Positions 1 through 1,191 of a stretch of 15,370 nt of DNA are shown here, piece by piece. Position 1 is the stretch's first letter. The number at the start of each line of letters is the position of its first letter. The position numbers were made by a program, and so were the translations under genes. Source of the stretch: a virus; the UHGV virus genome UHGV-0225464. One strand, 5' to 3'. A model generated the notes under the pieces. It did no database searches. It worked only from the letters and a program-made list of their open reading frames with translations, and had not been told where the DNA came from.

Positions 1-96
1 ATTATTGATTTTTGGCGAAACCATTTGATCATATGACAAGATGTGTATCTACCTTAACTTAATGATTTTGATAAAAATCATTAGGGGATTCATCAG
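1..96 (-). mobile_element. Terminal 96 bp of an IS10-like (IS4 family) element, outside-end type; the transposase body would lie off-window to the left
   Basis: Reverse complement of 1-96 reads CTGATGAATCCCCTAATGATTTTTATCAAAATCATTAAGTTAAGGTAGATACACATCTTGTCATATGATCAAATGG..., which matches the IS10/Tn10 outside end as I recall it, with a few substitutions. A GATC site sits at 27-30 where IS10 has its Dam site. Recalled from memory, not searched. Confidence 0.7.
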
Positions 97-514
97 GGCC
101 AAGCCACCAATTTACGTAATTAGCCACAGAGATACAATATTTTAGTTTACTTATGTATTTCTGAAGCATGTCTTTGCGCAGTATCGTCGCCGTATTCCCA
201 CATGAACAGAGACCGCAGCCCTACCGGGAGACTCCTCTGCGCGAGTGTGCGGGGATAATCAAAAACGATACACACCGGGGTTTACCGCGTTAACGGAGCG
301 TGGCGTTGTCCCCTCATAGTCGCCTGTCCGGTGCGATGGTGGAAGAAGCCGGATGTTTATCACTATTAATTGATGACACAGAAATTGATTCATTGAATTT
401 CAGCACGTTTTTGTATTCGTGTTATTGAACATCTGTTTATTTTACTTTTAACATATTGATAATAAAAAGAGCTGTAAATCTTTAGATGAGTCGATTTTGT
501 CCGGGGAAGTTCAA

Positions 515-655
515 ATGGATTTTATGCTGACGGTTTCTGGTGTGGTTATCCTGTCCATTGCTTATACTGCAGATAAATATGGCTGCCATTTGTTATCACG
601 TATTGGCGCTTATTGTTCGTTGATGCTGATTTTCTCGTCGCTTTTTTTTGAGTAA
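515..655 (+). CDS. Hypothetical 46-aa hydrophobic small protein (MDFMLTVSGVVILSIAYTADKYGCHLLSRIGAYCSLMLIFSSLFFE)
   Basis: ATG at 515 to TAA at 653-655, read by hand; below the 60-aa cutoff of the ORF track. GGGGAAG lies 5-6 nt upstream as a possible ribosome-binding site, and the product has two hydrophobic stretches. No homolog recognised. Confidence 0.3.
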   Translation: MDFMLTVSGVVILSIAYTADKYGCHLLSRIGAYCSLMLIFSSLFFE

Positions 656-787
656 GTTATATTAATTATAACAAATAATTTTCTGTGTTATTTTTTCAGG
701 CTATCCCGTCAGAGGGGAAGCCTGTACTGCCGGGGAGCGAATGGAAAACTGATGTGTCCGGTAACTGCGTGTTCTGTGAACACCATG

Positions 788-973
788 TTACTTAATTATG
801 TAATTCATACCCGAACTCTCTGTTGACAGCCTTCTTCTGCAGGCTTCAATAACCCACGCTGAAAAGTTTCCTGAACCTTTCAGATCAAGAGCGATGTTAA
901 TTTGTTCAATCATCTGGTTTGGAAATCGGATGTTGCGGGTTGTTGTTCTGCGGGTTCTGTTCTTTGATGACAT
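788..973 (-). CDS. DUF3950 / YlcI-YnfO family small protein, homolog of the small ORF at the right end of phage lambda
   Basis: 61-aa minus-strand ORF (MSSKNRTRRTTTRNIRFPNQMIEQINIALDLKGSGNFSAWVIEACRRRL...) closely matches my recollection of the lambda right-end ORF (MSTKNRTRRTTTRNIRFPNQMIEQINIALEQKGSGNFSAWVIEACRRRL...). The flanking DNA up to cos (974-1179) is also lambda-like. Confidence 0.6.
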   Translation of the reverse strand: MSSKNRTRRTTTRNIRFPNQMIEQINIALDLKGSGNFSAWVIEACRRRLSTESSGMNYIIK

Positions 974-1179: not shown

Positions 1180-1191
1180 GGGCGGCGACCT
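1180..1191 (+). other. cosN 12-nt cohesive end (GGGCGGCGACCT), terminase nicking site
   Basis: GGGTCCTTTCCGGCGATCCGACCGGTTACG|GGGCGGCGACCTCGCGGATTTTCACTATTTATGAAAATTTTCCGG is nearly identical to the lambda right-end/left-end junction as recalled, and sits immediately upstream of the small terminase gene. Confidence 0.85.

What the first reader, a model, noticed from the sequence alone, without database searches (positions are those of the whole stretch)
515..655. Unannotated 46-aa hydrophobic ORF, a possible small membrane protein or toxin-like peptide
ATG-initiated frame with a plausible ribosome-binding site (GGGGAAG) encoding two hydrophobic stretches. It is below typical ORF-caller thresholds, so would be missed by annotation. 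It lies convergent to the DUF3950 gene, in the arm where lambdoid phages carry accessory (moron) genes. I do not recognise it as Hok, Ldr, Ibs or TisB.
Basis: inference. Interest (0 to 1): 0.45.

Follow-up and report, generated by a model that had tools for sequence, protein, structure and literature searches.

The report
Small prophage membrane-protein gene, already annotated
The 46-codon reading frame is real and is probably a genuine small two-helix membrane-protein gene carried as an optional extra by lambda-like prophages of E. coli, but public annotation has listed it as a hypothetical protein (ECs1538) since 2001 and its function is unknown, so it is a modest finding.

Summary
The ORF (515-655, +, ATG, GGGGAAG five bases upstream, 46 codons) is there as described. 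It is not unannotated. RefSeq calls it WP_000347013.1. In O157:H7 Sakai it is ECs1538, in prophage Sp6. It occurs in 734 of 5,426 complete E. coli genomes and in no other species searched.

It sits in an AT-rich insert of about 458 bp (361-818, 36% GC) that related phages lack. The insert lies between the lysis genes and ylcI/cos.

Evidence for a real gene:
- It is the only frame kept open in all four diverged allele groups.
- The ORF and a 92-bp upstream block stay 82-87% identical while the DNA around them falls to 58-71%.
- Synonymous changes are in excess (P about 0.004), but this weakens to 0.13 without the conserved core.
- Published Ribo-seq in Sakai shows footprints over 98% of the ORF. 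RNA over the ORF is about 19-fold higher than over the stretch just upstream, which implies its own promoter in the lysogen.

Two hydrophobic helices are predicted. It matches no toxin, holin or defence family, and I found no sign of an antisense partner. My best reading is a moron-encoded small inner-membrane protein. The mechanism is inferred only.

The parts
361..818 (.). AT-rich insert (moron module) that carries the ORF. It is absent from otherwise homologous lambdoid prophages.
   Evidence: In L089 and L091, segment A (window 175-360) is followed after about 42-55 bp by the ylcI segment (window about 819-839 onward), so 361-818 is an insertion/deletion difference. Qin-like L090 carries a DUF1398 gene in the same slot. 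GC is 36% against 54% for the whole window. In L085-L087 the homology ends at 763 and different genes follow.
387..478 (.). Conserved non-coding block upstream of the ORF, the probable promoter and regulatory region. It holds a plus-strand -35 TTGAAC (425-430) and -10 TAACAT (449-454), and a minus-strand -35 TTTACA (478..473) and -10 TATGTT (455..450) whose -10 overlaps the plus-strand one.
   Evidence: The block is 86-87% identical, without gaps, to the most diverged alleles, while the next 36 bp drop to 58-67%. My own PWM ranking scores 11.2 for the plus-strand site and 11.0 for the minus-strand site, against a background 90th percentile of 8.0. The minus-strand site is also reported by the consensus scan. 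Published RNA-seq rises from 3.0 RPKM over the window 155-373 equivalent (ECs1537, plus strand) to 57.6 RPKM over the ORF, which places a plus-strand promoter between 374 and 514. The transcription start site itself has not been mapped.
503..509 (+). Shine-Dalgarno-like GGGGAAG, five bases before the ATG.
   Evidence: Read directly from the sequence. GGGGAA is kept in three allele groups and weakened to GGGTTA in L143. PMC5597208 S4 Table lists an SD 4 bp upstream with dG -3.6.
515..655 (+). 46-codon ORF plus stop (RefSeq WP_000347013.1; Sakai ECs1538), a predicted two-helix inner-membrane peptide.
   Evidence: The ORF is intact in 34 distinct module sequences (233 copies) and in four diverged allele groups down to 71% amino-acid identity. 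It is the only ORF of the module kept in all groups. Substitution events are 18 synonymous and 17 non-synonymous, against 10.3 synonymous expected (P 0.004). Ribo-seq coverage is 0.98 and RCV is 0.46 in LB.
643..650 (+). T8 run in the last codons (LFFE), a slippage hot spot that makes C-terminal length variants.
   Evidence: Variants of 44, 45, 49, 51 and 54 residues differ only after about residue 43, through length changes in the T run or loss of the stop.

Best explanation
The ORF is a genuine, translated accessory ('moron') gene of lambda-like E. coli prophages.

Anatomy (shown):
- A roughly 458-bp AT-rich cassette lies between the lysis genes (Rz) and ylcI/cos.
- It brings a conserved promoter-like block, a Shine-Dalgarno site and a 46-codon ORF.
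- The cassette is present or absent among related phages.
- The ORF and the upstream block are the two conserved islands within it.
- In an O157:H7 lysogen the ORF is transcribed far above the DNA just upstream and carries ribosome footprints.

Product (predicted):
- A helical hairpin of two hydrophobic helices, roughly residues 3-19 and 26-45.
- The helices are joined by the conserved polar turn A-D-K-Y-G.
- It probably inserts in the inner membrane with the K21/R29 turn facing the cytoplasm.

Mechanism (inferred, not shown):
- It is made at a low, non-lethal level in the lysogen, and more strongly by late read-through.
- It probably acts by binding another inner-membrane protein rather than by forming lethal pores.
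- The most plausible role is blocking or tuning a host membrane protein that incoming phages or the cell use, that is, superinfection exclusion or transporter/sensor modulation.

The confidence below is for 'real small membrane-protein moron'. I put any specific role at no more than about 0.25.
For: - Module boundaries and low GC.
- The frame stays open, with the same start and a length within one codon, in all diverged alleles and all 34 distinct sequences.
- No other ORF of the module is conserved.
- The ORF is 82-83% and the upstream block 86-87% identical to the most diverged alleles, against 58-71% for the spacer and the downstream DNA.
- NG dN/dS against L003 is 0.31, the lowest of the six frames.
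- Synonymous changes are in excess, 18 against 10.3 expected, P 0.004.
- Replacements preserve hydropathy, P 0.047.
- The polar turn and the R29 core are invariant, while helix 1 changes conservatively (V/I, S/A, F/L).
- AlphaFold2 predicts two helices.
- Published data for Sakai ECs1538 (PMC5597208, S2 and S9 Tables): RNA 57.6 RPKM, ribosome footprints 26.1 RPKM, RCV 0.46 and coverage 0.98 in LB, which passes that paper's own thresholds (1 RPKM, coverage 0.5, RCV 0.25). TMSEG gives 2 transmembrane helices and inner membrane.
- ECs1537 just upstream, on the same strand, has 3.0 RPKM.
- There is a single copy in Sakai, so reads map uniquely: H161.
Against: - An ORF of this length arises in 43% of shuffles, and a T-rich strand makes hydrophobic peptides by composition.
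- The single unbiased pairwise comparison is not significant once the transition bias is kept: 13 amino-acid differences against 14.7 expected, P 0.26.
- The synonymous excess falls to P 0.13 when the conserved core codons are left out. My degenerate search pattern required those codons, so they are partly subject to ascertainment bias.
- The upstream non-coding block is at least as conserved as the ORF, so some constraint is at the nucleotide level.
- Read numbers behind the Ribo-seq values are small. Mean counts were 7 RNA and 4 footprint reads in BHI (S7 Table), and RCV 0.46 is below the control-group mean of 1.55.
- No terminator was found.
- There are no homologues outside E. coli prophages, so there is no functional inference by homology.
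- There is no protein-level detection.
Confidence: 0.62

Rival explanations
1. The ORF is not a functional gene. The 361-818 cassette is conserved for a nucleotide-level reason, such as a regulatory DNA region or an RNA, or simply because it spread recently. On this view the open frame and its hydrophobicity are by-products of a T-rich sequence, and the ribosome footprints are background translation of a transcribed region.
For: - Chance ORFs of this length are common (43% of shuffles).
- The pairwise amino-acid test is not significant (P 0.26).
- The synonymous excess is not significant outside the core (P 0.13).
- The upstream non-coding block is conserved as well as the ORF.
- 733 of 734 genome copies are at least 95% identical, so there has been little time for decay.
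- Read counts are low.
- The taxonomic range is very narrow.
Against: - Of all the module's ORFs, only this one survives in all four allele groups at 17-25% DNA divergence.
- There are no stops and no internal frameshifts in the 34 distinct sequences. Length changes are confined to the last residues.
- Conservation drops sharply on both sides of the ORF.
- Five of six substitutions past the start codon among the close alleles are synonymous third-position changes.
- Hydropathy is preserved (P 0.047).
- The SD is at the right distance, and footprints cover 98% of the ORF.
Confidence: 0.2
2. The peptide is a membrane-damaging toxin of a type I toxin-antitoxin-like or abortive-infection module. 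Translation would be kept low by an RNA partner, for example one made from the minus-strand promoter-like site at 478..450, and excess peptide would depolarise the inner membrane.
For: - It is a small hydrophobic peptide under 60 residues on a prophage.
- A minus-strand promoter-like site has a -10 element overlapping the plus-strand one inside the conserved block.
- Translation efficiency is low (RCV 0.23-0.46).
- No terminator separates it from convergent ylcI, so antisense overlap with ylcI mRNA is possible.
Against: - There is no match to Hok, Ldr, Ibs, TisB or any other family in Pfam, NCBIfam or PADLOC.
- There are no relatives among 1.84 billion representative proteins.
- Two helices are predicted, not the single helix usual for type I toxins.
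- The two predicted start sites (about 461 rightward, about 443 leftward) would give non-overlapping transcripts.
- The minus-strand RNA has no terminator and folds no better than shuffles (z +0.5), and so does the mRNA (z +0.5).
- Footprints are seen in unstressed LB culture.
Confidence: 0.1
3. The peptide is a late-phase lysis accessory. It would be made mainly by read-through of the Q-antiterminated late transcript and would modulate the timing of the class II holin / endolysin system encoded about 2.5 kb upstream, as an antiholin-like or holin-helper membrane hairpin.
For: - It has the same orientation as the lysis cassette and lies about 465 bp downstream of it.
- It forms a two-helix hairpin like class II holins.
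- Nearly all carriers have a class II holin.
Against: - Non-carriers have the same holin family, so there is no association.
- The cassette is optional and separated from Rz by the conserved segment A.
- It is transcribed in uninduced lysogens well above the neighbouring late-strand DNA.
- It has no similarity to holin or antiholin families.
- It lacks the charged C-terminal tail typical of holins.
Confidence: 0.07

Closest known systems
Lambda bor / iss-type morons in the Rz-cos interval
   Same: Both are optional accessory genes placed between the lysis cassette and cos. Both are AT-rich relative to the phage and are expressed from the prophage, apparently from their own promoter. Related loci carry bor/iss in this interval.
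   Different: Bor/Iss is a 97-residue outer-membrane lipoprotein encoded on the opposite strand. There is no sequence similarity, and this peptide has no signal or lipobox and is predicted to sit in the inner membrane.
HK97 gp15, a moron-encoded inner-membrane superinfection-exclusion protein (recalled from my own knowledge of Cumby et al. 2012; not retrieved here)
   Same: It is a small membrane protein of a lambdoid phage, encoded by a moron and made in the lysogen. It is the model for the mechanism I consider most plausible.
   Different: It sits at a different genome position (the tail region). It did not appear among the relatives in the exhaustive search. No exclusion phenotype was tested here.
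Type I toxins (Hok/Gef, Ldr, Ibs, TisB, ShoB, DinQ, ZorO)
   Same: They are of similar size and hydrophobicity, and some are prophage-borne. hokD lies in the same EDL933 prophage.
   Different: There is no family match. This peptide has two predicted helices rather than one. No antisense RNA or structured leader was found. It is translated in unstressed cells.
Class II holins / pinholins (S21-like, Pfam Phage_holin_2_1)
   Same: Both are two-transmembrane hairpins encoded on the late strand of lambdoid phages.
   Different: Those holins are about 71 residues with a charged C-terminus. The phage already has one upstream. This peptide does not match the family and its presence does not track with holin type.
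Small inner-membrane regulators of E. coli (AcrZ, MgtS, MgrB, CydX and similar; from my own knowledge)
   Same: They are under 50 residues, hydrophobic, expressed at low level, and act by binding larger membrane proteins.
   Different: Most have one helix and are chromosomal core genes. This one is a prophage-restricted orphan with no identified partner.

Membership tests
Moron (accessory insert of lambdoid phages, in the sense of Juhala/Hendrix) | Present or absent between otherwise homologous phage genomes, with sharp boundaries | tested here: met
   Window 361-818 is replaced by about 42-55 bp in L089 and L091 and by a DUF1398 gene in L090.
Moron (accessory insert of lambdoid phages, in the sense of Juhala/Hendrix) | Base composition different from the surrounding phage DNA | tested here: met
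   36% GC in the module against 57.5% in segment A and 54% in the whole window.
Moron (accessory insert of lambdoid phages, in the sense of Juhala/Hendrix) | Own promoter, expressed from the repressed prophage | tested here: inconclusive
   There is a conserved promoter-like block. Published RNA-seq gives 57.6 RPKM against 3.0 RPKM just upstream on the same strand. No start site is mapped, because the TSS supplement was truncated before this position.
Moron (accessory insert of lambdoid phages, in the sense of Juhala/Hendrix) | Own terminator downstream | tested here: not met
   No intrinsic terminator lies between 656 and 787 on the plus strand. PMC5597208 S4 Table also lists none.
Type I toxin-antitoxin system | Toxin belongs to a known toxin family (Hok, Ldr, Ibs, TisB and others) | tested here: not met
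   No hits at E <= 1 in Pfam and NCBIfam, or at E <= 10 in PADLOC. The exhaustive HMMER search finds only its own cluster.
Type I toxin-antitoxin system | Antisense or partly complementary small RNA encoded at the locus | tested here: inconclusive
   A minus-strand promoter-like site exists at 478..450. Its predicted transcript would not overlap the mRNA, has no terminator and no unusual fold. There is no Rfam match. No strand-specific end-mapping data were available.
Type I toxin-antitoxin system | Over-expression is toxic (membrane damage) | not testable with these tools
   This needs an induction experiment.
Class II holin (Phage_holin_2_1) | Match to the family profile, about 70 residues, charged C-terminal tail | tested here: not met
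   There is no Pfam or PHROG hit. The peptide is 46 residues and ends in LFFE. A true class II holin is encoded upstream in related loci.
Small integral membrane protein (general class) | At least one predicted membrane-spanning hydrophobic helix, and evidence of translation | tested here: met
   Kyte-Doolittle peaks are 1.64 and 1.60. AlphaFold2 gives two helices. TMSEG gives 2 transmembrane helices, and Ribo-seq coverage is 0.98 (PMC5597208). Membrane localisation itself is not tested.

The most novel reading that the evidence does not exclude
The cassette is a self-contained, lysogen-expressed defence or addiction unit of a new kind. A 46-residue two-helix membrane peptide would either block DNA entry of superinfecting phages or act as the toxin of a new type I-like pair. 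Expression would be set by the 92-bp conserved block with back-to-back promoters whose -10 elements overlap. It is carried by about 13% of complete E. coli genomes, including O157:H7 strains (Sakai, EDL933, TW14359) and O145, O111, O103, O121 and O45 strains among the hits.
Probability: 0.12. Interest if true: 0.55.

Novelty: new member of a known kind. Interest (0 to 1): 0.28.

Why it matters
If the peptide is real and functional, it is an uncharacterised lysogen-expressed membrane protein carried by about one in seven complete E. coli genomes (734 of 5,426). The hits include O157:H7 and other Shiga-toxin-producing serogroups. It is absent from K-12, which explains why small-protein surveys missed it. 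Small prophage membrane proteins have repeatedly turned out to be exclusion factors or modulators of host transporters, so it is a cheap and clear target for a tagging and deletion experiment. As it stands, it is an already annotated orphan 'hypothetical protein' with modest evidence of coding and no evidence of toxin activity.

Tried and rejected
- Family assignment. Pfam, PHROGs, NCBIfam and PADLOC gave nothing for the peptide. A PDB profile search gave only designed helical repeats and YdiK at poor E-values. A BFVD fold search gave one hit at E 9.5.
- Distant homologues.
  - The word-indexed search found only near-identical E. coli entries.
  - The exhaustive profile search found only its own cluster plus spurious tandem-repeat translations (P0014, P0015, P0019, P0020).
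  - Two scans of 185,579 species-representative genomes found nothing.
- Literature. Searches for ECs1538, WP_000347013, the UniRef id and the peptide's first residues returned no paper.
- Start-site data. The EDL933 supplement is stored truncated and stops near position 165,000, so it has no data for 1,648,712.
- Known prophage small RNAs. AgvB/AsxR lie 3' of PR', not here. The Pas sRNA preprint does not mention this region. Rfam finds only RNA-OUT.
- Association with holin or terminase type. Carriers and non-carriers share the class II holin. Carriers occur with lambda-Nu1-type, P27/HNH-type and other terminases. This gives no functional hint.
- Terminators and structured leader. None was found for the ORF's mRNA.
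The L003 peptide was also too short for a single-protein locus search.

Full report
**What is in the sequence**

The plus strand carries ATG at 515, TAA at 653-655 and 46 codons (MDFMLTVSGVVILSIAYTADKYGCHLLSRIGAYCSLMLIFSSLFFE). GGGGAAG sits at 503-509, five bases before the ATG. An in-frame TTG at 497 would add six residues, and some pipelines use it.

The peptide is very hydrophobic:
- GRAVY is 1.11, the highest of the 44 ATG ORFs of 40-80 residues in the window.
- Kyte-Doolittle 19-residue maxima are 1.64 and 1.60, for residues 1-19 and 26-44.
- AlphaFold2, on a shallow alignment, gives two helices (2-22 and 24-44) at mean pLDDT 72.

Length alone is not beyond chance. 43% of dinucleotide shuffles of the surrounding 458 bp contain an ATG ORF of at least 46 codons. 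Only 2.3% contain one that is also as hydrophobic. The strand is 44% T.

**The ORF is annotated**

A search of 5,426 complete E. coli genomes finds the region in 734 of them. 733 copies are at least 95% identical, and the match lies under a feature called 'hypothetical protein'.
- The feature is exactly this ORF, WP_000347013.1.
- In O157:H7 Sakai it is ECs_1538 / NP_309565.1, in prophage Sp6.
- In EDL933 it is EDL933_RS08445, at 1,648,712-1,648,852, in a prophage that also carries nleL, espN and espK.
- The exact protein is recorded on at least 1000 contigs, all E. coli and all unnamed.

**Genomic setting**

- Window 1-97 is the outside end of an IS10. Rfam RNA-OUT matches 1-51 on the plus strand at 61 bits.
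- In uninterrupted relatives the same DNA continues about 45 bp further left to the end of the Rz-type 'lysis protein' gene.
- To the right of the ORF lies convergent ylcI (DUF3950) at 788-973.
- The 12-base sequence GGGCGGCGACCT is at 1180-1191. From my own knowledge this is the lambda cohesive end.
- The terminase genes follow from 1375.
- The ORF therefore lies on the late-gene strand, at the right end of the packaged chromosome.

**The ORF sits in an optional cassette**

- Relatives L089 and L091 have window 175-360 ('segment A') followed after 42-55 bp by the ylcI segment. Window 361-818 is therefore an insertion/deletion difference.
- A Qin-like prophage has a DUF1398 gene in that slot.
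- In L085-L087 the homology ends at 763 and other genes follow.
- The cassette is 36% GC against 54% for the window.
- It occurs next to lambda-Nu1-type, P27/HNH-type and other terminases.

This is the anatomy of a moron.

**Is it coding?**

I collected 233 copies (34 distinct sequences) from complete genomes, IMG/VR and metagenomes. Four allele groups exist, at 100%, about 89% and about 71% amino-acid identity, the last with two sub-types.

In favour:
- All groups keep the ATG (one has GTG), the frame and the length within one codon. Length variants arise only in the terminal T8 run.
- No other ORF of the cassette survives in all groups.
- Against the most diverged alleles, the ORF is 82-83% identical and a 92-bp upstream block (387-478) is 86-87% identical. 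The 36-bp spacer is 58-67% and the downstream DNA is 59-71%. There are two conserved islands, and one of them is the ORF.
- Nei-Gojobori dN/dS against L003 is 0.31, the lowest of the six frames.
- Over all alleles there are 18 synonymous and 17 non-synonymous events past the start codon, and no stops. Placing the same base changes at random sites gives 10.3 synonymous, P 0.004.
- Replacements preserve hydropathy (P 0.047).
- The polar turn and the following residues (A19, K21-Y22-G23, L26-C34) are invariant, while helix 1 changes conservatively.

Caveats:
- The single pairwise test that keeps the observed transition bias is not significant: 13 amino-acid differences against 14.7 expected, P 0.26.
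- Leaving out the core codons, which my degenerate search pattern required, gives P 0.13. Six of the seven synonymous core events are nevertheless seen in alleles found independently of that pattern.

**Published expression data**

Huecker et al. 2017 (PMC5597208) used ECs1538 as one of 250 short annotated control genes.
- S2 Table gives these values:

| Condition | RNA (RPKM) | Footprints (RPKM) | RCV | Coverage |
|---|---|---|---|---|
| LB | 57.6 | 26.1 | 0.46 | 0.98 |
| BHI | 32.7 | 7.3 | 0.23 | 0.81 |
| Cold/osmotic stress | 2.1 | 0.6 | 0.29 | 0.13 |

- The LB values pass that paper's own criteria: at least 1 RPKM, coverage at least 0.5 and RCV at least 0.25.
- S9 Table lists 2 TMSEG helices and inner membrane.
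- S4 Table lists an SD 4 bp upstream and no terminator.
- The old gene ECs1537 corresponds to window 155-373 on the plus strand and has only 3.0 RPKM. ECs1536, further upstream, has 10.1 RPKM.
- RNA therefore rises about 19-fold between 374 and 514, which points to a promoter in the conserved block.
- My ranking puts TTGAAC(425-430)-18-TAACAT(449-454) first on the plus strand. It is a weak consensus match and was not listed by the stricter scan. That scan instead lists a minus-strand site (478..450) whose -10 overlaps it.
- Read numbers are small. S7 Table gives mean counts of 7 RNA and 4 footprint reads in BHI.
- Sakai has one copy, so mapping is unique.

**What it is not**

- There is no match in Pfam, PHROGs, NCBIfam or PADLOC.
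- An exhaustive profile search of 1.84 billion representative proteins returns only its own cluster, fragments of it, and tandem-repeat junk.
- Two scans of one genome for each of 185,579 species find nothing.
- It is therefore not a member of the Hok, Ldr, Ibs, TisB or holin families. It is an orphan confined to E. coli prophages.
- The mRNA from 465 to 720 folds no better than shuffles (z +0.5).
- A hypothetical minus-strand RNA from 445 folds no better either.
- No terminator follows the ORF.
- Nothing positive supports a type I toxin-antitoxin pair. Footprints in unstressed cells argue mildly against a tightly silenced toxin.

**Conclusion**

The best-supported reading, at about 0.6, is a real moron gene for a two-helix inner-membrane peptide. 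It would be expressed at low level from its own promoter in the lysogen and by read-through late in infection.

How it works is inference only. By analogy with other small prophage membrane proteins, I favour binding to another inner-membrane protein (exclusion of incoming phage DNA, or modulation of a transporter or sensor) over pore-forming toxicity or lysis timing.

The main rival, at about 0.2, is that the ORF is incidental to a cassette conserved for nucleotide-level reasons.

Its 'toxin-like' suggestion has no positive support. Novelty is low: this is an already catalogued, uncharacterised orphan in a well-known class.

Noticed in passing
window 1-97: This is the outside end of an IS10 element. 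RNA-OUT (Rfam RF00240) matches 1-51 on the plus strand at 61.4 bits, so pOUT reads toward the small ORF. The element is inserted about 45 bp downstream of the Rz-type lysis gene. None of 5,426 complete E. coli genomes has this junction. The insertion should interrupt the late transcript between the lysis and head genes, so this prophage may be defective.
   Followed up: partly
window about 192-358 ('segment A'): This is a GC-rich (57.5%) stretch with no gene in current RefSeq annotation. It is conserved at the same position (after Rz/bor, before ylcI/cos) in 398 phage records, including lambda, Stx1/Stx2 phages and Salmonella phage S107, down to 74% identity. Plus-strand RNAalifold gives -40.7 kcal/mol against -24.9 for the minus strand. 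A few two-sided compensatory pairs occur, for example in the terminal hairpin TCCGGT...ACCGGA versus TCTCGAT...ATCGAGA, mostly contributed by one diverged lineage. It has no Rfam match and only 3 RPKM in Sakai lysogens (ECs1537). It may be a structured element of the late transcript.
   Followed up: partly
window 656-800, minus strand: The RNA just downstream of the ylcI stop codon folds much better than shuffles: -34.1 kcal/mol, z -3.7, 0 of 200 shuffles as stable. It has two hairpins but no U run, so it is not a typical intrinsic terminator.
   Followed up: no
window 788-973, minus strand (ylcI / DUF3950): Variation among relatives is strongly period-3 (positions 869, 872, 875, 881, 884, 890 and so on), showing clear purifying selection. 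The sequence (NIRFPNQMIEQINIAL..GNFSAWVIEACRRRL) looks to me like a ribbon-helix-helix DNA-binding fold, and it has a weak PHROG hit to HicB-like antitoxins (E 0.012). It is present next to cos in many lambdoid phages, with or without the small ORF.
   Followed up: no
window 425-478: Plus-strand and minus-strand promoter-like sites have -10 hexamers that overlap on opposite strands (TAACAT at 449-454 and TATGTT at 455..450). They lie inside a 92-bp block that is invariant among close relatives and 86-87% identical in the most diverged alleles. The block is longer than a promoter alone needs.
   Followed up: partly
window 1180-1191: There is an exact match to the 12-base sequence GGGCGGCGACCT, which from my own knowledge is the lambda cohesive end. 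It lies 184 bp upstream of the small terminase ORF that starts at 1375. The phage therefore packages from a lambda-type cos site, and the small ORF lies about 525 bp from the right chromosome end.
   Followed up: partly
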